A stretch of 64,000 nt of DNA from Lachnospiraceae bacterium (GCA_014804755.1 JAAUZE010000008.1:100109-164108); one strand, 5' to 3'; positions 4,972 to 32,640 are shown, numbered from the stretch's first letter. Program-made: numbers and translations. Notes: a model not told the origin generated them from the letters alone.

Positions 4972-6294
4972 ATGGGCAAAAAAATTGGTATCGTCATTTG
5001 CAATTATAATAAAAAACAATTTGTATTATCGTGCATCCAATCAGTACTGGATTCAAGCAGAAAGGATTTTGACGTCTATGTGGTGGATAATGCCTCGACG
5101 GACGGCAGTGCGGACGCGGTGAAAGCGGCATATGGAGACAGGGTCATTCTGATTCAGAACGAGCAAAACCTCGGCGGCAGCGGGGGATTCAACACGGGAC
5201 TCCGCGCGGCAAGGCAGACGGGATACCCCTATTACATGTGCGTGGATAATGATATTGTGATGGATGAGCATAATATTGAAAACCTGCTTTGTTTTTTAGA
5301 AGAGCATCATGAGGTGGGAATCGTCGGTTCCAAGATCTGCCGCATGCAGCACCCGGAACGGCTCCAGGAGCTTGGAGCGCGGCTGGATTTTGAAAAATGC
5401 ACACATGTTCCTTATTATAAAGACCATTTAGACAATGAGGATATCCCGGAGGTGCAGGATTGCGATTATGTTCCGGCCTGTTCGCTGATGGTTCGGGATG
5501 AGGTGATCGATAAGATCGGGCTGCTCCCGGAAGAAAACTTCATTTATTGGGACGATATGGAATGGTGCTATAAGGCAAAGCTTGCGGGGTATCGGGTTGC
5601 GGCGTACCGACAGGCGAAGGTGCTGCATGATATGGGAACCAATTCCGGGGATACGTATTTTTCTACTTATTATTTCTGGCGAAACAGAATTCGTTTTTTT
5701 GCGAGGTATACACCGCAGGATCAAAGAGAAGCAGCGATAGGAACCTTGCTGGAAAATGTTTTTCAGACCATGTACGGCTGTTATTACAAGGGGAAGACAA
5801 ATCAGATTTCCATTATGATGCATGCGCTTGACGATGCGATTCATCATCTCACAGGGAAGGCGGCCGAGGGAAAAATCCTGCCGAAGGATGCGATCGAAGA
5901 CCGGGTGGCAGGATTGTTTGAGACCTATCATAATGTGGTCGTTGAATTTAACGGGGATTACAAGCTGCTTCAGGATATTGTGAAAAAGATACAAAAAGCG
6001 GAGACGGAAGTTTCTCTGCGGATTGTCAGTGACGATGCGGAGGAAGTGCAAAGACAATATCCGGAATATCCCGTTATAAAGAGGGATCAGGTGTCAATCG
6101 AAACGGTTGAGGACTTAAGCGTGTTGTGGCTTGCGATGTGTGAGCATGTATCCAAAGTGGAGGATCACAGCCTGAAAAAGGTTTATATTGACCCGTACAG
6201 TAACCTTTTGGAGAATGAGCGGGATTTGCAGCATTTTGCGGGGTATCAATATAATAAGGATTTGTTTGTGCGCATGTGGAAGGTGCTGCTGTAA
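4972..6294 (+). CDS. family 2 glycosyltransferase, paralog of 2066-3391
   Basis: 'IGIVICNYNKK', 'VVDNASTD' and 'CVDNDIV' motifs. Same two-domain architecture as 2066-3391. SD AGGAGG. Confidence 0.8.
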   Translation: MGKKIGIVICNYNKKQFVLSCIQSVLDSSRKDFDVYVVDNASTDGSADAVKAAYGDRVILIQNEQNLGGSGGFNTGLRAARQTGYPYYMCVDNDIVMDEHNIENLLCFLEEHHEVGIVGSKICRMQHPERLQELGARLDFEKCTHVPYYKDHLDNEDIPEVQDCDYVPACSLMVRDEVIDKIGLLPEENFIYWDDMEWCYKAKLAGYRVAAYRQAKVLHDMGTNSGDTYFSTYYFWRNRIRFFARYTPQDQREAAIGTLLENVFQTMYGCYYKGKTNQISIMMHALDDAIHHLTGKAAEGKILPKDAIEDRVAGLFETYHNVVVEFNGDYKLLQDIVKKIQKAETEVSLRIVSDDAEEVQRQYPEYPVIKRDQVSIETVEDLSVLWLAMCEHVSKVEDHSLKKVYIDPYSNLLENERDLQHFAGYQYNKDLFVRMWKVLL

Positions 6295-19392: not shown

Positions 19393-20580
19393 TTATATAT
19401 CGTACAATTCGTTGTAGAGCTTTTCGGTCAAGGGAACCGCTTGTTCCCATACGTTTAAAAATGTATCATAAAGATGTTTTCCACGGCTTTGTATATCATT
19501 TTCGGAAATTTCTATTATTTCAAATGAAGAATTAGTAATTTGGAGAGGGTATCCTTCGCTGTCACATATTATTGGACTATAAAGCACGGCGTTATCACTT
19601 ATGATTATAGATTCTTTGCGTGGGCATTTGTATAGCCTAATCATTTCGCTTATAGGCAAGTGAAATCTATTTTGCATCCTAACAGCCGCTTCCAAACAGG
19701 TTTGTAAATCTGCTAAGAATCTCCTCTCTTTGTCTTTGCTTACAGCTTTGGTCATAGCTTCGCTTTTTGGATGTGGAAATAGACATTTAAAATCCACCCC
19801 ATTATTTATTCCTTCAATGGCTAGATACTTAAAAAAATCATCATTTTCACCTGTAAATATTTTTTTATTCCTTCTGCCATAAAACCATAAACGTTTGCCT
19901 TGATAATCAATTACATTTCGAATAAGTATTTTCGTAAGAACGCTGGTTGAAAATCCTTTATGAAAAAGAATATGCTCCTTGGTTATTTCAGGACTAACTA
20001 TTGTGAAATTTCCATGGTTGTCCTTCATAATTTGCTCAACCAAATCTCTGCAAGTGTCGGGAATCATTTGTTCACGTTGCAAGATCATTTTAACTTCTTT
20101 TATATATGCATTCCAGTGACTATTGAAGTTTTTGATATCTGTATTAGAATCTTTTGCCAATTCTTGTAAAAAACGTTTGAATTCCTCTCGTGATTTCTTA
20201 AAATTATCATTTTCATTATTTAAACGTATAGGGACATAACGATTTAGAGGTTTATCTACCCATGATGACCAATCGGGAATATGTTCAAATAATATTGGTA
20301 TAACTATACTTCCTCCTGGCTCTGCAAAATGTGCACCATACACTACACCTGCTTCATACATTAACCAAGGATTCTTAAAATTATCTGATGTTATACAAAC
20401 GATACATTTATCACTTCTCAAAAGATTATTATGTATTTCATTATCAACGGATGTCCCTTTATACATATCGGGAGAAAAAAACACTTCAATTTTATTTTCT
20501 AATGTATTCAAGATGAATTTTTTTGTTTCTAATGCTAATAATTTACTTTTATCTTTTGACCAGCTAATAAATATTTCCAC
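19393..20580 (-). CDS. TIR-domain protein with uncharacterised C-terminal domain
   Basis: 'IFISWSKDKS', 'EVFFSPD' and 'CIVCITSDNFKNPWLMYEAGVV' match bacterial TIR boxes, including the putative catalytic Glu. GTG start sits 6 nt after the IR-borne GGAGG. Confidence 0.7.
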   Translation of the reverse strand: MEIFISWSKDKSKLLALETKKFILNTLENKIEVFFSPDMYKGTSVDNEIHNNLLRSDKCIVCITSDNFKNPWLMYEAGVVYGAHFAEPGGSIVIPILFEHIPDWSSWVDKPLNRYVPIRLNNENDNFKKSREEFKRFLQELAKDSNTDIKNFNSHWNAYIKEVKMILQREQMIPDTCRDLVEQIMKDNHGNFTIVSPEITKEHILFHKGFSTSVLTKILIRNVIDYQGKRLWFYGRRNKKIFTGENDDFFKYLAIEGINNGVDFKCLFPHPKSEAMTKAVSKDKERRFLADLQTCLEAAVRMQNRFHLPISEMIRLYKCPRKESIIISDNAVLYSPIICDSEGYPLQITNSSFEIIEISENDIQSRGKHLYDTFLNVWEQAVPLTEKLYNELYDI

Positions 20581-27169: not shown

Positions 27170-28165
27170 TCATGTGGAAACCTGTCTTTGCAGTCTCGCT
27201 TTCAGACTGTTCAGGAATCTTTCATTTTCGAGCACAGTAAGCATAGGCCCAAAGGACATGACTTCAATCAGCAGTTCGGTCTCCATATTCCGGTTATAAT
27301 AGATGACGCATTCATAGGTATCCTCATCTATTTTTGTAGTATTTTTTTCATAGTTTGCAAAGTGCAGCATGGCACGCTCAAGGGCATTGCGTTTGTTGAC
27401 AATGCGCAGTTTAAGAGGTTCTTTATAGTAAGAACGCTGAATCATCGCGTCTAAGTCCACAGGGGAGGATAGCGTTTTTGGCATCAGTTTTACGCTCTGA
27501 ATACGGGAAACATTCAGAATTTCCAGCTTCATTCTTCCGTCCGCTTTAGCTTCATGGTGCGAATCTGAATCAAAAGCCGGACGGCAAGGTTTCAAGGCGA
27601 GAATCCGGAATTTGTCATTTTTGACCGAGTATTCCAGACGGGCGGGGATATAGTGGTGATGTACGCGGTTCCCGTTGGGCGCGGTGTAGTCGATGTCCAC
27701 GTACTGTTTCTGTTTCTGTGCCTGAAGCAGAGTCCGAAAGCAGTGGCGGTAATTTTCATCCTCGTAAGGGTCGCTGTCGGCGAACCGATCGAAATAATAG
27801 AACTGTTCCGGTCTCCAAAGCGGAGCAACGGAAGCCAGCATTTTATCCAATGTTTCCAGCTGATCCTGTTCCAGGAACAACCCTATGCGCGGGTCGGACA
27901 GCAGTGCCTTAAGATAGGACTTCTCAAGGCTGGAAACAGGGGTGATAAAGGAGGATGAGAGACGGGAATGGTATAGCTTCCCATCCTTTTCAAATAAATT
28001 CCATGTCCCGTCTTCCAGCCTGGGGATTATGGAGAGCAGGCTCTCCTCAAAACCTTCGTCGCAGATCCGGCGGCGGATGTCTTGCATGGTCAGTGCGTCC
28101 TGACTGCACAGTAAATGTCTTAATACCTGGTAGTAACAGCTATATATTTCTGAGAATACTTCCAT
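27170..28165 (-). CDS. WYL-domain protein with WCX-like C-terminus
   Basis: 'YVDIDYTAPNGNRVHHHYIPARLEYSVKNDKFRILALK' is a WYL-like beta-barrel and the C-terminal '...PMLTVLENERFLNSLKARL' is WCX-like. Lies 15 nt downstream of its paralog. Confidence 0.6.
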   Translation of the reverse strand: MEVFSEIYSCYYQVLRHLLCSQDALTMQDIRRRICDEGFEESLLSIIPRLEDGTWNLFEKDGKLYHSRLSSSFITPVSSLEKSYLKALLSDPRIGLFLEQDQLETLDKMLASVAPLWRPEQFYYFDRFADSDPYEDENYRHCFRTLLQAQKQKQYVDIDYTAPNGNRVHHHYIPARLEYSVKNDKFRILALKPCRPAFDSDSHHEAKADGRMKLEILNVSRIQSVKLMPKTLSSPVDLDAMIQRSYYKEPLKLRIVNKRNALERAMLHFANYEKNTTKIDEDTYECVIYYNRNMETELLIEVMSFGPMLTVLENERFLNSLKARLQRQVST

Positions 28166-28180: not shown

Positions 28181-29425
28181 TCAAGAGTTGTCCTTTATTT
28201 GGTACATCCGGCACATTGTCTGTAGATCCCGATAAAAGCGATGTTCCACGGATTTGTCCGTACATTCCAGAGACAAGATCCTGCCTATGAAGGTGCGGAT
28301 CCAGGGCAGCATCTCATTGCAGTCGAATACTTCTATTTCGTACTGATAAACATTACGTTCTATTCTTGTGACCGTACCGCCTCTGCCCTCACGCTTTAAA
28401 CGTTCCACAATATATTGTTCGGAAGGTTCCAGAGCCTGTATTGTCATAGTCAGCCGGTTAAGGTGGTGTCGGGCATTCCCCTGAAAGGATACGCCCCACA
28501 GATGGCAGCGGTTCCGATCCAGCTGTGCCAGCAGTTCCTCATATTTCTCCGATTGGTCTAAGAGAGTGACGGTTTTGACGGTATCCAGGCGGTAGCAGGT
28601 GAAACGCTTACTTTTTTTCGCATATCCGCATAGAAAACGGCGGCCGCTTCTGGTGCTGGTGAAAATCTGCAGGGGCGTACAGTCGGCGGTATTCAGTGCT
28701 CCGTTTTTGGAGCTTTTTATTTCCAGACGTACATCTGTCTTATGGTTCATGGCATTCAGAAGGTCGAAAAGGATTTCCTCCTCCAAAGTATGTACGCAGA
28801 AGCTGTGTTTCACCCGGAAGGTCCGGTTGTGATGATCAAACTGTTCCGAAAGGTGGTTTCCGATGATCCCGAAGCTCCCTGCCATCTGGTAAAATGCAAG
28901 GGCGTCCAGCATGCTCTCATTGGATTTTATCCAGACAGCCAGAGAATTATCGATGGAAAAAACGATGGTTTTCCCAGATTTCTTTTTATGTAACAGCCCT
29001 TCTTTTTCATAGGCGTTGCATTTTCGGCGAACGGTCTGTATATCGAACAGCGCCTCATATTTCTCAAGCAGGCCGCCTGTTATTTCCTCCGCAGTCAATT
29101 CTGCGCCGTCCTGAAGCAGATCAAGTATCAGAAAATGGAGCACGATATCGTTGTCGGTGAAGCTTTTCGTCTTCCATACCCGAAACAGAGGGTTGGTATC
29201 CAGCAGGTTACTGTCTATGGCGAGAGAAATGTTGGAGCCGTTAGACACATGGTCTTTCCGCACATGATTCCCAAGCCAGCTTTCCAGTCGCCTCCGTTCA
29301 TTGTCGTAGGTTCGGGGGCTTTTGTCCTTGAATTCATCTCTGGTCTTGAAGCCGTAGACAAAAAAATCACGCACATATTCTCTTGTTTTGGGAAAGCTTT
29401 TGACCAGCTCCTGAAAATCAGACAT
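28181..29425 (-). CDS. HTH-WYL-WCX transcriptional regulator-like protein
   Basis: N-terminal wHTH 'KSPRTYDNERRRLESWL', a WYL-like 'PLQIFTSTRSGRRFLCGY' and C-terminal 'IQALEPSEQYIVERLK'. Confidence 0.6.
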   Translation of the reverse strand: MSDFQELVKSFPKTREYVRDFFVYGFKTRDEFKDKSPRTYDNERRRLESWLGNHVRKDHVSNGSNISLAIDSNLLDTNPLFRVWKTKSFTDNDIVLHFLILDLLQDGAELTAEEITGGLLEKYEALFDIQTVRRKCNAYEKEGLLHKKKSGKTIVFSIDNSLAVWIKSNESMLDALAFYQMAGSFGIIGNHLSEQFDHHNRTFRVKHSFCVHTLEEEILFDLLNAMNHKTDVRLEIKSSKNGALNTADCTPLQIFTSTRSGRRFLCGYAKKSKRFTCYRLDTVKTVTLLDQSEKYEELLAQLDRNRCHLWGVSFQGNARHHLNRLTMTIQALEPSEQYIVERLKREGRGGTVTRIERNVYQYEIEVFDCNEMLPWIRTFIGRILSLECTDKSVEHRFYRDLQTMCRMYQIKDNS

Positions 29426-29632
29426 ATTGCCTCCGAATGACCGCCGTTTATGGCAGTTAGTTTTTATTTAGGAATAAATATAACACACTTCGCAACATTT
29501 TTGAAATGATTATTTGGAAAATGTTTCATATACTGATTTTAGTTCATCAAGCAAAACCATATAAAATGCGGCTTTGCATCAGGGAACGGAAGATGAACCA
29601 TATACAAGATAGGAAGAAAGGATGGAGAGGAT

Positions 29633-30865
29633 ATGTTCGTATTGTATAACGAGAATACAAGATTTCCGGTAAAGGTGTGGCTGAAAGATGAGAGTGGGCT
29701 GGAGGGAAAATGTCTGGAGCAGGCATACAACCTGTCGAAGCTTCCTTTCATACATAAATGGGTATGTCTGATGCCTGATACCCATGCGGGTAAGGGAATG
29801 CCCATCGGCGGAGTGATCGCCACAAAGGATGTGATCATCCCCAATGCGGTTGGGGTAGATATCGGATGCGGTATGGATTTTATTCCTACCAATATTCGCG
29901 TGGAGGACATAAAAGGCATTCAGACCGGAAACGGCACCCTGATCCAGTCCATCATCGGAAGCATCATGCGGACGATTCCGCTAAATACAGAGAGATACAA
30001 GGTTCCGCAGGAGTCGGAAGTGCTGGATCGTGCACAGCGGGAAATGGAAAAATATGAGGAGGATGCAGAGCTGGTGCCATTGATTGAGGACGGATATTTT
30101 CAGGTGGGAAGTCTGGGCGGCGGTAATCATTTTATCGAGCTTCAGGAAGATCAGGAAGGATATCTCTGCATTATGATCCACTCCGGAAGCCGTCATCTCG
30201 GAAAGGCAATCTGCGATTACTTCCATAAGAAGGCGGGAGAGCTGAACAGAATGTGGCACAGCGAAGTCAAGGATGAGTATCATTTGTCTTTCTTGCCTGT
30301 CCAGACAAAAGAAGGGCAGCAGTATATCAACTGGATGAATCTGGCGCTGGATTATGCCTTCGAGAACCGCGCCCGTATGCTGGATAAGACCTGTGGCATT
30401 GTGAAAGAGCAGATTGAGAAGCACACGGACCTCACAGTGGAATTCGGAGAGGAGATCAACTGCCATCACAACTATGCGGCATTGGAAAATCATTATGACG
30501 CTAATGTCTGGGTACATAGGAAAGGCGCTACCAGAGTGAGGGAAGGAGAAATGGCTGTGATACCGGGAGCCATGGGATCTTACAGCTATGTGGTGGAAGG
30601 AAAAGGAAATAAGGAATCCTTCTGCACCTCCTCCCACGGTGCTGGCAGAAGATACTCCAGATCCGGCGCCATGCAGGCATTCAGCACAGAGCAGGTCATG
30701 GTGGATCTGAAGGAACAGGATGTTGTGCTGGGAAAGCGCAAGAAAAATGATGTTGCCGAGGAGTGCCGGTTTGCCTATAAGGATATTGACCAGGTTATGG
30801 CACAGCAGCTGGACATGGTCACGCCGGTGAGGAAGTTAAAGACAGTGGGCGTGGTGAAAGGATGA
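29633..30865 (+). CDS. rtcB: RNA-splicing ligase RtcB (E. coli type)
   Basis: 'LMPDTHAGKGMPIGGV', 'GVDIGCGM', 'GGGNHFIE', 'EINCHHNY', 'CTSSHGAGR' and C-terminal 'VGVVKG' are colinear with E. coli RtcB. Confidence 0.9.
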   Translation: MFVLYNENTRFPVKVWLKDESGLEGKCLEQAYNLSKLPFIHKWVCLMPDTHAGKGMPIGGVIATKDVIIPNAVGVDIGCGMDFIPTNIRVEDIKGIQTGNGTLIQSIIGSIMRTIPLNTERYKVPQESEVLDRAQREMEKYEEDAELVPLIEDGYFQVGSLGGGNHFIELQEDQEGYLCIMIHSGSRHLGKAICDYFHKKAGELNRMWHSEVKDEYHLSFLPVQTKEGQQYINWMNLALDYAFENRARMLDKTCGIVKEQIEKHTDLTVEFGEEINCHHNYAALENHYDANVWVHRKGATRVREGEMAVIPGAMGSYSYVVEGKGNKESFCTSSHGAGRRYSRSGAMQAFSTEQVMVDLKEQDVVLGKRKKNDVAEECRFAYKDIDQVMAQQLDMVTPVRKLKTVGVVKG

Positions 30866-30889
30866 GCTCAGCGGGGGTCAAATACCCCG

Positions 30890-30931
30890 CAGTATACTGA
30901 ACAGAAAAGCTGATATGGTGTCAGTATACTG
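30890..30931. promoter_or_regulatory. pair of identical 10-bp palindromes CAGTATACTG, 32 bp centre-to-centre
   Basis: Located at 30890-30899 and 30922-30931, just after the rtcB stop and a GC hairpin (30871-30890). Confidence 0.3.
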
Positions 30932-31039
30932 TGGGATATTTGACAAGGCACGGGTATTGGAAGTCACTTCCTGCCCGGCGGTGCCGACAGCGTGCTGTGC
31001 GGTATTCCACGAATATTCCAACCGGCTTAACGTGGTGTT

Positions 31040-31400
31040 AAGTGAAGGTTTGTGGTGTCGAGGGTTCGAATCCCTCCCGTGTAAACGGTAGCTCAGTGGG
31101 TAGAGTGCACAACATTATGGCAAGACCTGTAAAGTCTGCGGTTCGAATCCGCCCAAAGCAATACTTTTATCCCGATTTCAGGCAAATTCTGCATCTCTGT
31201 GAAGCGCAAAGGATTGCGAAGCAGGGAAAGCGTGAGGGCGCCAAATCAGTCTGCGGCCTGAAGGCCGGGGATACCGCAGATCGGAAGGAGGAACAACACT
31301 CTGTAAAGAATATTGAGAAACGGTGATGATATCCCTTTACAGAGTGCCCTTCCTCCCCACGGTCTGCTGAACCGGGCTTCCGCTTCAGACTGATGAATGA
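31040..31400 (+). ncRNA. structured tRNA-mimic RNA (Y-RNA/YrlA-like candidate)
   Basis: Two T-arm mimics (31060-31076 and 31137-31153, GGTTCGAATCC loops). D-arm mimic TAGCTCAGTGGGTAGAG at 31089-31106 with U8/A9/G18G19. 12-bp perfect hairpin 31297-31308/31335-31346 and long-range pairing 31255-31263/31386-31394. No acceptor or anticodon stems. Confidence 0.45.
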
Positions 31401-31447
31401 GGGATATCAGTATTACTAAAACAAATTAAGATCAGGAGGAGTAAGTT

Positions 31448-32554
31448 ATGAAGTATATTATCAGAGATAATCAGGCAGGGTTTGTATTGAAGAATGGCGT
31501 ATTTCAAAAGATGATCACCGCGGGAACCTGGCATTTTCCTAAGATAGCAGGTTACACGGTCGAGATTGAGGAGATGTCGAATGAACTGGATTATCAGGAG
31601 GTTCCCTATCAGGTGCTTTCCGGAGATGCTGCATTCCTTAATGCCACTGTACATACGGAAATACCGGATGGCTCTGTGGGTTTCATCTACATGAATGGCA
31701 AGCTGACAGCCTTTGCGAGCAGGAAGGATTATGTATTCTGGAATGTGTTTGATACGTATGAGGTCAAAGTTGTGTCCATGGCGGAGACGTTCATCGGAGC
31801 AGAAGTGACGAAGCAGATGCTTTCGCTGGTGCCGAAGCACCTTTATACGGAGGTGTCGGTGGGAGAGGGAGAAATCGGTCTGGTATACTATGACAACGTC
31901 ATGCAGACCCCACTTTCCAAAGGCGTATATCGTTTCTGGAATTACCATCATGTCGTTTCCTGCTGCGTGATTGATATGAAGCAGAAAGAACTGGATATCG
32001 TGGGTCAGGAAATTCTGACCAAAGACAAGATAGGCATCAGAATGAACGTTGCATGCATGTATAAAATACGGGATGCAGTAGAATTCGTTGCAACGATCTC
32101 GGATCTGAAAGGACAGCTTTACCCTGCGGTACAGCTTGTGATCAGAGAGGTCGTGGGCAATTACAAGCTGGACGAGATACTGGAGGCAAAGGAGCAGATC
32201 TCCGGGGAAATCTACGAGGCGCTTAAGGGGCGGGAAGAGATGTTCTGTGTGAATTTCCTCACCGCGGGAATCAAGGATATCATACTGCCCGGCGAGATCA
32301 GGGAGATCATGAATTCTGTCCTTGTGGCGGAAAAGGCAGCTCAGGCAAACGTGATCGCCAGAAGGGAGGAGGTGGCCTCTACCAGATCTCTGCTCAACAC
32401 GGCGAAGCTTATGGACGAGAACCAGACACTCTACAAGCTGAAGGAGCTTGAGTATCTGGAGAAGATCTGTGAGAAGGTAGGCGACATATCTGTCAATGGC
32501 AATGTGGGAATCATGGAGCAATTGGGGAAAATGATGGGGACGAGACAGGGATGA
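31448..32554 (+). CDS. SPFH/band-7 domain protein
   Basis: 'GIRMNVACMYKIRDAVEFV...REVVGNYKLDEIL...AEKAAQANVIARREEV' is a classic SPFH core. SD AGGAGGAG. Confidence 0.8.
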   Translation: MKYIIRDNQAGFVLKNGVFQKMITAGTWHFPKIAGYTVEIEEMSNELDYQEVPYQVLSGDAAFLNATVHTEIPDGSVGFIYMNGKLTAFASRKDYVFWNVFDTYEVKVVSMAETFIGAEVTKQMLSLVPKHLYTEVSVGEGEIGLVYYDNVMQTPLSKGVYRFWNYHHVVSCCVIDMKQKELDIVGQEILTKDKIGIRMNVACMYKIRDAVEFVATISDLKGQLYPAVQLVIREVVGNYKLDEILEAKEQISGEIYEALKGREEMFCVNFLTAGIKDIILPGEIREIMNSVLVAEKAAQANVIARREEVASTRSLLNTAKLMDENQTLYKLKELEYLEKICEKVGDISVNGNVGIMEQLGKMMGTRQG

Positions 32555-32597
32555 TCTAATTAGTTCTTCATGTTTTGGTTATATTGTGTTAAAATAA

Positions 32598-32640
32598 CAG
32601 ATATGGCTCCGGCGGGGAGCCATATCTGTGTTATAAATTC
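32598..32640 (+). terminator. rho-independent terminator
   Basis: 13-bp perfect stem CAGATATGGCTCC/GGAGCCATATCTG with loop GGCG. Confidence 0.6.

What the first reader, a model, noticed from the sequence alone, without database searches (positions are those of the whole stretch)
31040..31400. Highly structured tRNA-mimic RNA between rtcB and the SPFH gene (Y-RNA/YrlA-like candidate without an Ro gene)
The 580-bp rtcB-SPFH spacer contains two T-arm mimics with canonical GGTTCGAATCC loops (31060-31076, 31137-31153) and a D-arm mimic TAGCTCAGTGGGTAGAG with U8, A9 and G18G19 in place. Neither forms a 7-bp acceptor stem or an anticodon arm, so these are not tRNA genes or simple 3' fragments. Downstream lies a 12-bp perfect hairpin (CACTCTGTAAAG / CTTTACAGAGTG), extended by GGAAGG/CCTTCC and enclosing a 26-nt loop. 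A 9-bp long-range pairing (ATCAGTCTG at 31255 with CAGACTGAT at 31386) closes the whole region. Conserved D-loop/T-loop tertiary-contact nucleotides without an anticodon arm is the design of bacterial Y RNAs (YrlA). In Salmonella these are encoded in the rsr-yrlBA-rtcBA operon, but no Ro/TROVE gene is present here. This could be a new Ro-independent tRNA-like RNA associated with RtcB.
Basis: partly seen in the sequence, partly recalled or inferred. Interest (0 to 1): 0.75.

Follow-up and report, generated by a model that had tools for sequence, protein, structure and literature searches.

The report
Large tRNA-like RNA beside SPFH gene
The tRNA-like pieces are real and form the core of a conserved, roughly 465-base structured RNA that always lies just upstream of a stomatin-like (SPFH) gene in RNA-ligase (RtcB) operons of gut Firmicutes; this pairing was predicted by others in 2016, but the RNA is much larger than a tRNA mimic.

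Summary
Both exact GGTTCGAATCC T-loops and the D-arm are present and unique in the 64 kb. There is no tRNA gene and no TROVE/Ro gene among the ORFs scanned.

The finding covers only part of a larger RNA, about 30951-31414. It has three parts:
- a 5' domain of three hairpins;
- a circularly permuted tRNA module (variable loop, T-arm, GNRA-capped acceptor-like hairpin, U8A9, D-arm) that matches the tRNA-like core of Rfam YrlA at 35.7 bits, below the gathering score of 69, followed by a hairpin and an optional second T-arm;
- a long irregular hairpin closed by a 14-bp long-range helix.

Covariation supports both halves (26 and 25 compensatory pairs, against about 14 in shuffles). The RNA occurs in at least 90 Lachnospiraceae, Clostridia and Bacilli loci, always directly 5' of the SPFH gene. 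Where SPFH is absent, only truncated remnants remain. Two WYL-domain genes lie divergently upstream.

Burroughs and Aravind (2016, as cited by Wang et al. 2018) predicted Band-7-associated tRNA-like RNAs, and occasionally YrlA next to Band-7 genes. This is therefore a new, much larger variant of a known but unvalidated kind. The most likely role is an RNA partner or scaffold of the SPFH protein in an RtcB repair module. A cis-acting leader role is not excluded.

The parts
27170..28165 (-). 331-aa WYL-domain protein, second gene of a pair transcribed divergently from rtcB; inferred regulator
   Evidence: PADLOC WYL model E 4.8e-9. No Pfam or NCBIfam family at threshold. Conserved next to rtcB in most of the 80 genome loci.
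28181..29425 (-). 414-aa WYL-domain protein, first gene of the divergent pair
   Evidence: PADLOC WYL E 1.2e-8. Pfam WYL below threshold, 18.8 bits at residues 218-287. Conserved synteny.
29633..30865 (+). rtcB (RNA 3'-phosphate ligase)
   Evidence: Pfam RtcB, 363 bits.
30877..30944 (+). 24-bp inverted repeat between the rtcB stop codon and the start of the RNA; clade-specific insert, not part of the conserved RNA
   Evidence: the repeat finder I2, 92% complementary. Found only in the window and in L001, L002, L003 and L025, with no other copy in the window. In most loci the RNA starts about 10 nt after the rtcB stop.
30951..31414 (+). The whole conserved structured RNA (5' domain, permuted tRNA module, second T-arm, tail hairpin closed by a long-range helix)
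   Evidence: nhmmer profile hit 30941-31194, E 4.9e-79, and tail profile hit 31346-31414. Covariation. Spacer fold z = -7.98. The ORF frame 31042-31326 is broken by stop codons or frameshifts in most homologues.
30951..30977 (+). P1/P2 bulged hairpin (P1 30951-56 with 30972-77; P2 30959-63 with 30967-71)
   Evidence: 97.7% and 94.6% of cells paired. P2 has 3 pairs with compensatory changes.
30981..31005 (+). P3 hairpin; the invariant GGUGCC and GGUAU strings form its base
   Evidence: 97.7% paired, 5 pairs with compensatory changes. The GGUGCC...GGUAU motif is kept in distant Clostridia, Paenibacillaceae and Bacillales loci.
31026..31042 (+). P4 hairpin, variable in length
   Evidence: 83.7% paired. 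Replaced by two hairpins in the L042-L046 and L062 group.
31050..31112 (+). Circularly permuted tRNA-like module: closing stem P5 (31050-54 with 31108-12, the anticodon-stem analogue), 5-nt variable-loop analogue 31055-59, T-arm 31060-76, acceptor-like 4-bp hairpin with GNRA loop 31077-88, U8A9 31089-90, D-arm 31091-31106
   Evidence: Rfam YrlA partial match 31052-31113. T-arm and acceptor-like hairpin 100% paired, D-arm 95.7%, P5 95.9%. Abundant compensatory changes in 26 diverse homologues.
31123..31137 (+). P7 hairpin (AGAC with GUCU) with a variable 7-nt loop; resembles an anticodon arm but the loop is not conserved
   Evidence: 93.6% paired, 2 covarying pairs. Loop sequences vary.
31138..31152 (+). 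Second T-arm (GCGG-UUCGAAU-CCGC); an optional element of the family
   Evidence: 100% paired, 2 covarying pairs in 35 sequences. Absent in L057, L058, L060, L063, L065, L070 and L079.
31160..31173 (+). 5' strand of the long-range helix (AAUACUUUUAUCCC)
   Evidence: Pairs with 31401-31414. 92.9% of cells paired in 23 sequences, 4 pairs with compensatory changes. The window copy has 12 of 14 pairs.
31245..31394 (+). Tail domain: a long irregular hairpin. Helices: 31246-53 with 31386-93; 31255-57 with 31382-84; 31260-68 with 31372-80; 31276-83 with 31360-67; 31287-93 with 31350-56; apical 31297-308 with 31335-46. Conserved internal loops GGAUACC and UGAA
   Evidence: 90.4% of cells paired against 37-48% when partners are slid. 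25 pairs with compensatory changes against 14.3 +/- 1.9 in shuffles. The apical part varies from 9 to about 240 nt between loci. The GGAUACCG motif is kept in distant loci.
31401..31414 (+). 3' strand of the long-range helix (GGGAUAUCAGUAUU); the conserved RNA ends here, 33 nt before the SPFH start codon
31448..32554 (+). SPFH/Band-7 (slipin/stomatin-like) protein, 368 aa, with an unassigned N-terminal region of about 135 aa
   Evidence: Pfam Band_7, 93 bits at residues 137-308. PDB stomatin and QmcA hits over residues 168-341. NCBI name 'slipin family protein'.

Best explanation
The finding is the tRNA-like core of a roughly 465-nt structured non-coding RNA (window about 30951-31414). This RNA is transcribed together with rtcB and the downstream SPFH/slipin gene, from a promoter probably controlled by the two divergent WYL-domain proteins.

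Shown here:
- The RNA is conserved and its structure is supported by covariation.
- It is not protein-coding.
- It contains a circularly permuted tRNA (the YrlA design) with all the elbow-forming nucleotides.
- It is always immediately 5' of this SPFH subfamily's gene.

Inferred:
- It is the RNA subunit or scaffold of an SPFH ribonucleoprotein that works with RtcB after RNA damage. This would be the Band-7 counterpart of the Ro60/Y-RNA pair.
- The long hairpin, with its conserved GGAUACC/UGAA internal loops, is the likely protein-binding platform.
- The tRNA-shaped module presents a tRNA elbow to tRNA-recognising factors such as RtcB, tRNA nucleases or modification enzymes. It would either recruit them to the SPFH assembly or compete with real tRNAs.
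For: Structure:
- 5' domain: 93.4% of cells paired, 26 compensatory pairs against 14.5 +/- 2.1 in shuffles, 0 of 500 shuffles as high.
- Tail domain: 90.4% paired, 25 compensatory pairs against 14.3.
- tRNA module: covaries across 26 diverse homologues.
- Relation to Y RNA: partial but significant YrlA match restricted to the tRNA-like module. A full-length YrlA-like RNA sits in the same operon position beside a different large protein (DUF2828+DUF7788) in Oscillospiraceae rtcB loci.

Coupling to SPFH:
- The RNA is present in 42 of 49 genome loci with SPFH by automatic criteria, and in 6 more by eye.
- No full RNA occurs in 26 rtcB loci without SPFH. L009 and L020 keep only truncated remnants.
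- About 50 metagenomic hits to a pattern from the 5' domain are family members, and nearly all with enough flank show RtcB, RNA and SPFH in that order; the exceptions are L109 and L146 (no rtcB) and L139 (no SPFH).
- The RNA-SPFH pair persists when rtcB is deleted (L109, L146) or moved downstream (Subdoligranulum L302).

No expression platform:
- There is no plus-strand terminator between rtcB and SPFH.
- The stretch between the end of the RNA and the ribosome-binding site varies in length (about 28-145 nt) and in sequence.

Literature:
- Burroughs and Aravind predicted Band-7 modules with a cognate tRNA-like RNA as RtcB cofactors (quoted in 10.1101/312249).
- Hughes et al. [quoted passage not shown]
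Against: - There are no expression, end-mapping or binding data. Stability as a discrete RNA and binding to SPFH are both unproven.
- A fixed position immediately 5' of SPFH in the same orientation is also what a cis-acting leader would show.
- The SPFH protein has no recognised RNA-binding domain, and its structure prediction failed (pLDDT 46).
- In Salmonella the role of Y RNAs in the rtc operon is itself unknown, so the analogy carries little mechanistic weight.
- The original 2016 description could not be read.
Confidence: 0.5

Rival explanations
1. Cis-acting leader or intercistronic regulatory RNA. The structure controls translation, stability or processing of the SPFH message, for example through autoregulation by the SPFH protein or through sensing of tRNA-binding factors. 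It would have no function in trans.
For: It is always directly upstream of SPFH and in the same orientation, in about 90 loci, including rearranged ones. In Subdoligranulum it forms the 5' end of the SPFH-rtcB transcript, after a terminator. It contains a purine-rich GGAAGGAGG strand paired to CCUUCCUCC, which could in principle compete with the true ribosome-binding site.
Against: No terminator/antiterminator and no conserved helix sequestering the ribosome-binding site were found. The linker to the ribosome-binding site varies in length and sequence. A size of 450-900 nt, with three separately conserved domains and a complete tRNA elbow mimic, is far beyond known leaders. The homologous module occurs in trans-acting Y RNAs. 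The GGAGG/CCUCC helix covaries, so it is not fixed as an anti-Shine-Dalgarno sequence.
Confidence: 0.2
2. Free tRNA decoy. The tRNA-shaped module acts on its own as a competitive inhibitor or sink for tRNA-targeting toxins (anticodon nucleases) or tRNA-binding enzymes during the stress that induces rtcB. Binding to the SPFH protein is not essential.
For: The elbow nucleotides are complete but there is no anticodon loop to cut. Hughes et al. suggested this role for YrlA, which was not cleaved by the Salmonella anticodon nuclease.
Against: It does not explain the strict coupling to SPFH. It also does not explain the conservation of the roughly 350 nt outside the tRNA module.
Confidence: 0.12
3. 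An ordinary Ro-dependent Y RNA (YrlA) whose Ro60/Rsr partner is encoded elsewhere in the genome, outside the 64-kb window.
For: The YrlA model is the best Rfam match. Only 64 kb of the genome could be examined.
Against: The Ro-binding terminal helix and the GNCGAAN0-1G motif are missing. The module is embedded in a larger RNA rather than closed by the 5' and 3' ends. No TROVE gene was found in the window. Related loci that do carry a full-length YrlA-like RNA have a different partner gene in place of SPFH.
Confidence: 0.05
4. Decayed tRNA genes or chance tRNA-like fragments with no function.
For: tRNA-derived sequence strings are present, and the tRNA model gives a sub-threshold hit (21.5 bits).
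Against: Conservation across Lachnospiraceae, other Clostridia and Bacilli. Compensatory changes in every helix, including the non-tRNA domains. The order of the arms is fixed and permuted.
Confidence: 0.01

Closest known systems
YrlA (Y RNA-like A; Rfam RF02553; Chen et al. 2014, PMC4201824)
   Same: The same circularly permuted tRNA design: variable-loop analogue, T-arm, capped acceptor-like hairpin, U8A9 and D-arm, closed by a stem, with the tRNA tertiary-contact nucleotides. Both are encoded in an rtcB operon. Rfam aligns model positions 23-88 to 31052-31113.
   Different: No Ro-binding helix and no GNCGAAN0-1G motif. The score of 35.7 is below the gathering score of 69. No rsr/TROVE gene was found nearby. 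The module is internal to a roughly 465-nt RNA with extra 5' and 3' domains and a second T-arm. The neighbouring protein is SPFH, not Ro60.
b7a-tRNA (Band-7-associated tRNA-like RNA) predicted by Burroughs and Aravind 2016, known to me only through 10.1101/312249 and my recollection of the 2016 abstract
   Same: A predicted non-coding, tRNA-like RNA encoded beside a Band-7/SPFH gene next to RtcB. The 2018 text also says YrlA is occasionally adjacent to the Band-7 gene, which is the configuration seen here.
   Different: b7a-tRNA is described as strongly resembling an authentic tRNA. The window RNA has no 7-bp acceptor stem and no anticodon arm, and it is about six times longer than a tRNA. A true cloverleaf copy occurs in a relative (L069, 50.9 bits). 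Whether the 2016 paper noted the flanking conserved domains could not be checked.
Ro60/Y RNA ribonucleoprotein (D. radiodurans Rsr-Yrn1-PNPase; Salmonella rsr-yrlBA-rtcBA)
   Same: The operon logic is the same: an RNA ligase, a large scaffold protein and a cognate structured RNA with a tRNA-like effector module, all induced by nucleic-acid damage.
   Different: The scaffold protein family differs (SPFH rather than TROVE-vWA). The regulator type differs (a WYL pair rather than the CARF protein RtcR). The RNA architecture differs.
Large structured bacterial RNAs in Rfam (OLE, ROOL, GOLLD, raiA, HEARO)
   Same: Size class (450-900 nt), multi-domain architecture and unknown biochemical role.
   Different: No Rfam family reaches its threshold anywhere in the window. 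Only chance-level hairpin hits fall in the tail. None of those classes contains a permuted tRNA or is tied to an SPFH gene.

Membership tests
YrlA (Rfam RF02553) | tRNA-like module in the order variable loop, T-arm, acceptor-like stem-loop, D-arm, closed by a helix | tested here: met
   cmscan alignment to model positions 23-88. Helices 96-100% paired with compensatory changes.
YrlA (Rfam RF02553) | tRNA tertiary-contact nucleotides (U8-A14, R15-Y48, G18G19 with T-loop positions 55 and 56, T54-A58) | tested here: met
   Read directly from the sequence: T31089, A31095, G31096 with C31059, G31099/G31100, and T31065-C31067/A31069. These columns are invariant or nearly so in 35 sequences.
YrlA (Rfam RF02553) | Ro60-binding helix formed by the RNA's 5' and 3' ends, with the GNCGAAN0-1G motif | tested here: not met
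   Model positions 1-22 and 89-114 are not aligned. The motif is absent from the 582-nt spacer.
YrlA (Rfam RF02553) | Score at or above Rfam's gathering threshold (69 bits) | tested here: not met
   35.7 bits. No hit at gathering thresholds.
YrlA (Rfam RF02553) | Encoded next to an rsr (Ro60/TROVE) gene | tested here: not met
   No TROVE hit in the 30 window ORFs scanned, which include every ORF of 400 aa or more. The rest of the genome was not available.
YrlA (Rfam RF02553) | Binds Ro60/Rsr | not testable with these tools
   Needs immunoprecipitation.
b7a-tRNA (Burroughs and Aravind 2016) | Non-coding RNA encoded beside a Band-7/SPFH gene in an RtcB neighbourhood | tested here: met
   Pfam RtcB and Band_7 flank it. 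The synteny recurs in about 90 loci.
b7a-tRNA (Burroughs and Aravind 2016) | Strong resemblance to an authentic tRNA (cloverleaf with acceptor stem) | tested here: not met
   ARAGORN finds none. The tRNA model gives 21.5 bits, below 29, and covers only positions 7-64. The feature is met in relative L069 (50.9 bits).
b7a-tRNA (Burroughs and Aravind 2016) | Match to the authors' own alignment or definition | not testable with these tools
   The paper (PMC5062991) is not held.
tRNA gene | 7-bp acceptor stem, anticodon arm, detection by tRNA finders | tested here: not met
Cis-regulatory leader (riboswitch, T-box or attenuator) | Expression platform: a terminator/antiterminator, or a conserved helix that sequesters the ribosome-binding site | tested here: not met
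   No plus-strand terminator lies between rtcB and SPFH in the window, L012 or L058. The linker to the ribosome-binding site is not conserved. No Rfam leader family matches.

The most novel reading that the evidence does not exclude
This is an undescribed class of large (450-900 nt) structured RNA, widespread in Firmicutes. It would be built around a permuted tRNA and would assemble with a cytosolic SPFH/slipin oligomer into a Ro-independent, vault-like ribonucleoprotein that acts with RtcB in the response to RNA damage. The 2016 'b7a-tRNA' prediction would then have captured only its tRNA-like fragment.
Probability: 0.3. Interest if true: 0.8.

Novelty: new variant of a known kind. Interest (0 to 1): 0.55.

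Why it matters
- What bacterial Y RNAs and their protein partners do in RtcB repair operons is still unknown.
- This locus offers a second, Ro-free version of the same logic in abundant and partly culturable gut Lachnospiraceae.
- Its RNA keeps the tRNA-mimic module but swaps the protein-binding part. Comparing the two systems could show what the tRNA mimic is for.
- It would also add a large, well-supported structured RNA that has no Rfam family, and it would give soluble SPFH/stomatin-like proteins a first candidate RNA ligand.
- The divergent WYL pair suggests a sensor of nucleic-acid fragments, analogous to the CARF domain of RtcR.

Tried and rejected
- **Reading Burroughs and Aravind 2016** by DOI, PMC id and PubMed id: not held. 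Its content is known only second-hand.
- **Literature searches** for RtcB+SPFH, SPFH+tRNA-like, rtcB+covariation and DUF2828: nothing further of relevance.
- **AlphaFold2 model of the SPFH protein** from 25 close homologues: pLDDT 46, unusable, so no fold search was run.
- **SPFH relatives in viral contigs:** none.
- **Permuted T-loop to D-arm pattern in viral contigs:** more than 120 hits, apparently closely spaced tandem phage tRNA genes. Uninformative and not pursued.
- **blastn of the RNA against plasmids:** no match.
- **Mutual-information scan for extra long-range pairs:** dominated by clade effects. It recovered only helices already proposed.
- **Small hairpin 31171-31182:** 61% paired and it overlaps the long-range helix, so it was rejected.
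- **Candidate CCAU/AUGG pairing (31007-10 with 31117-20):** 92% paired but with no compensatory change. Left open.
- **ORF 31042-31326 (94 aa):** frame not conserved, so it was rejected as coding.
- **Upstream inverted repeat 30877-30944:** not a repeated element and not part of the conserved RNA.
- **Metagenome pattern:** it was short enough that about half of its 100 hits were chance matches. These were removed with the family profile.

Full report
**Observation**

- GAGGG-TTCGAAT-CCCTC at 31060-31076;
- TAGCTCAGTGGGTAGAG at 31089-31105;
- GCGG-TTCGAAT-CCGC at 31138-31152;
- a perfect 12-bp hairpin, 31297-31308 with 31335-31346, and a 26-nt loop;
- ATCAGTCTG paired with CAGACTGAT, although the 5' arm is at 31245-31253, not 31255.

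The two exact GGTTCGAATCC strings are the only exact copies in 64 kb. The D-arm string is unique even with three mismatches allowed, against 0.02 expected by chance. ARAGORN finds no tRNA, and no Rfam family reaches its gathering score anywhere in the window. The 582-nt spacer between rtcB (29633-30865) and the SPFH gene (31448-32554; Pfam) folds much better than shuffled sequence (z = -7.98).

**What the tRNA-like part is**

With permissive thresholds, the best Rfam match is YrlA. It covers 31052-31113 at 35.7 bits (gathering score 69), E 4.5e-6, but aligns only model positions 23-88, which are the tRNA-like module.

Read in tRNA terms, the segment is a circularly permuted tRNA:

| Element | Window coordinates |
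|---|---|
| Closing stem, UUGUG with CACAA (anticodon-stem analogue) | 31050-54 with 31108-12 |
| 5-nt variable-loop analogue ending in C48 | 31055-59 |
| T-arm | 31060-76 |
| 4-bp acceptor-like hairpin capped by GUAA | 31077-88 |
| U8, A9 | 31089-90 |
| D-arm with A14, G15, G18, G19 | 31091-31106 |

This is the YrlA design described by Chen et al. 2014. The Ro-binding terminal helix and its GNCGAAN0-1G motif are absent. The Rfam tRNA model also gives a sub-threshold hit (21.5 bits) that joins the same D-arm to a downstream hairpin and the second T-arm. However, that hairpin's loop is not conserved.

**The RNA is much larger than the finding**

A search with RtcB returned 80 genome loci, mostly Lachnospiraceae. 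blastn and a profile search show that about 237 nt, window 30948-31184, are 73-88% identical in about 40 of them. Two further blocks, around 31245-31315 and 31345-31421, are also conserved.

An alignment of 35 sequences (A1) supports the following elements: P1/P2, P3, P4, the permuted tRNA module, P7 and T-arm 2. Of all cells, 93.4% are paired, against 36-45% when partners are slid. There are 26 pairs with compensatory changes, against 14.5 +/- 2.1 in shuffles.

The string AAUACUUUUAUCCC (31160-73) is the reverse complement of GGGAUAAAAGUAUU, found near the SPFH start in other loci (31401-14 in the window, 12 of 14 pairs). Compensatory changes occur there.

I built a second alignment (A2, 23 sequences). 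Each row joins the profile-matched mid, 5'-tail and 3'-tail segments with N linkers, and the variable apex is cut out. This alignment supports the long-range helix and a long irregular hairpin, 31245-31394. Of all cells, 90.4% are paired, against 37-48% when slid. There are 25 compensatory pairs, against 14.3 +/- 1.9 in shuffles.

The apex varies from 9 to about 240 nt between loci. The conserved RNA therefore spans about 30951-31414. The 94-codon ORF that overlaps it is interrupted or frameshifted in most homologues, so the region is not protein-coding.

**Distribution and genetic linkage**

Among the genome loci with enough flank, automatic criteria detect the RNA in 42 of 49 that carry the SPFH gene downstream of rtcB. 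In six more (L058, L063, L064, L065, L069, L070) it is visible by eye. The remaining locus, L054, has a degraded SPFH gene.

None of the 26 rtcB loci without SPFH has the full RNA. L009 and L020 keep only truncated remnants.

A metagenome scan with a pattern from the 5' domain, which is not tRNA-like, returned 100 stretches. About half are true members. Nearly all of these with enough flank show RtcB, the RNA and SPFH in that order; the exceptions are L109, L146 and L139, described below.

In L109 and L146 rtcB is missing, and the promoter region leads straight into the RNA and SPFH. L139 is the reverse exception: RtcB and the 5' RNA block are present, but the tail and SPFH are replaced by unrelated sequence. 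In Subdoligranulum (L302) the order is WYL, WYL, terminator, RNA, SPFH, then an RtcB-like gene. The constant unit is therefore RNA plus SPFH.

Distant members from Clostridium, Paenibacillaceae and Bacillales keep the GGUGCC...GGUAU hairpin, the permuted tRNA module (which covaries) and the GGAUACCG motif of the tail. The second T-arm is optional. L069 has, after the permuted module, a full cloverleaf tRNA-like element (50.9 bits; ARAGORN calls it tRNA-Thr) and a third T-loop.

**Neighbouring genes**

The two divergent genes, of 414 and 331 aa, have no Pfam or NCBIfam family at threshold. Both match the PADLOC WYL model (E 1e-8 and 5e-9), and the larger one has a sub-threshold Pfam WYL hit. 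They are syntenic with rtcB in most loci. I infer that they are ligand-sensing regulators, taking the place of the CARF protein RtcR.

The SPFH protein is stomatin-like over residues 168-341. I saw no obvious transmembrane segment on reading the sequence. Its N-terminal 135 residues match no family.

No TROVE domain was found in any window ORF of 400 aa or more, or in the 20 genes around the locus. No plus-strand terminator separates rtcB, the RNA and SPFH, so co-transcription is likely.

**Comparison with what is known**

Wang et al. 2018 (bioRxiv 10.1101/312249) report the following from Burroughs and Aravind 2016:
- they found RtcB next to a Band-7 protein and a predicted 'b7a-tRNA' that strongly resembles authentic tRNA;
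- YrlA is occasionally adjacent to the Band-7 gene;
- none of this had been validated experimentally.

The 2016 paper itself is not held. The window therefore belongs to a predicted kind. It fails the membership tests for YrlA (no Ro helix, below the gathering score, no rsr gene) and for a tRNA-like cloverleaf. Its 5' and tail domains have no Rfam match, and I found no description of them in the searchable literature.

In related Oscillospiraceae and Ruminococcus loci, the operon position after rtcB holds tandem Y-like RNAs. These include a full-length YrlA-like match (50.3 bits). They are followed by a protein of about 500 aa with DUF2828 and DUF7788 domains. This supports the view that the RNA-plus-protein cofactor modules are interchangeable.

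**Mechanism**

The structure, the conservation, the non-coding status and the linkage to SPFH are shown. The rest is inferred. My best reading, at about 0.5, is an RNA partner or scaffold of the SPFH protein in an RtcB-linked damage response. In this reading the tail hairpin binds the protein, and the tRNA-shaped module engages factors that recognise tRNA. A purely cis-acting leader (about 0.2) is the main rival, because the RNA is always 5' of SPFH. The absence of any conserved expression platform argues against it. A free tRNA decoy, a Ro-dependent Y RNA with Ro encoded elsewhere, and decayed tRNA genes are less likely.

**Verdict**

This is a new and much larger variant of a known, computationally predicted but experimentally untested kind. 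Interest is moderate to high for RNA-repair and structured-RNA specialists.

Noticed in passing
L076:5750-8003 (also L052, L073, L080): In Oscillospiraceae and Ruminococcus rtcB loci, the position after rtcB holds several tandem Y-RNA-like elements with a repeated G-N-CGUACAGCA-type 5' strand. One is a full-length YrlA-like match (6129-6229, 50.3 bits, below the gathering score of 69). They are followed by a protein of about 500 aa with DUF2828 and DUF7788 domains. This protein may be a Ro-like partner; its relation to TROVE was not tested.
   Followed up: partly
L069:5640-5840: A Bacillales MAG carries three T-loop elements between rtcB and SPFH: the permuted module, a complete cloverleaf tRNA-like element (Rfam tRNA 50.9 bits; ARAGORN tRNA-Thr AGU, 3' end ACCCA), and a third T-loop hairpin.
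   Followed up: partly
window 30877-30944: A 24-bp, 92% inverted repeat that contains two copies of the palindrome CAGTATACTG. It lies between the rtcB stop and the start of the RNA and is present only in the window's closest relatives. It could be an operator, a processing site or a recent insertion.
   Followed up: partly
window 29490-29545: The rtcB upstream region (TTTTTGAAATGATTATTTGGAAAATGTTTCATATA) is nearly identical to the sequence that directly precedes the RNA in loci where rtcB is deleted (L109, L146). It is likely the promoter and operator controlled by the WYL proteins.
   Followed up: no
L301 (E. coli CP061233.1 611-614 kb), 5700-5990 of the locus: E. coli, Citrobacter, Photobacterium and Burkholderia encode full-length homologues (about 30% identity) of this slipin. 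In E. coli the gene is followed by a nucleotidyltransferase gene and has no adjacent rtcB. The 530-nt region upstream of the slipin gene contains two T-arm-like hairpins (GGGG-GUCAAAC-CCCC and UGGG-UUCGAUU-CCCA), although Rfam and ARAGORN report nothing there.
   Followed up: partly
L302 (Subdoligranulum variabile OY725857.1): A rearranged version of the system: WYL, WYL, intrinsic terminator, T-loop RNA with the GGAUACCG motif, SPFH, then a distant RtcB-like gene (29% identity).
   Followed up: partly
window 19393-20580 (-): A 395-aa TIR-domain protein (Pfam TIR_2; PADLOC TIR-TM E 2.7e-16), about 9 kb from the rtcB locus. It sits among many GNAT acetyltransferase genes, a DUF4037 gene and phosphatase genes, and may be a defence gene.
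   Followed up: no
window 32597-32629: A 14-bp GC-rich hairpin 45 nt after the SPFH stop codon. The scan scored it as a terminator on the minus strand. It probably marks the end of the rtcB-RNA-SPFH unit.
   Followed up: no
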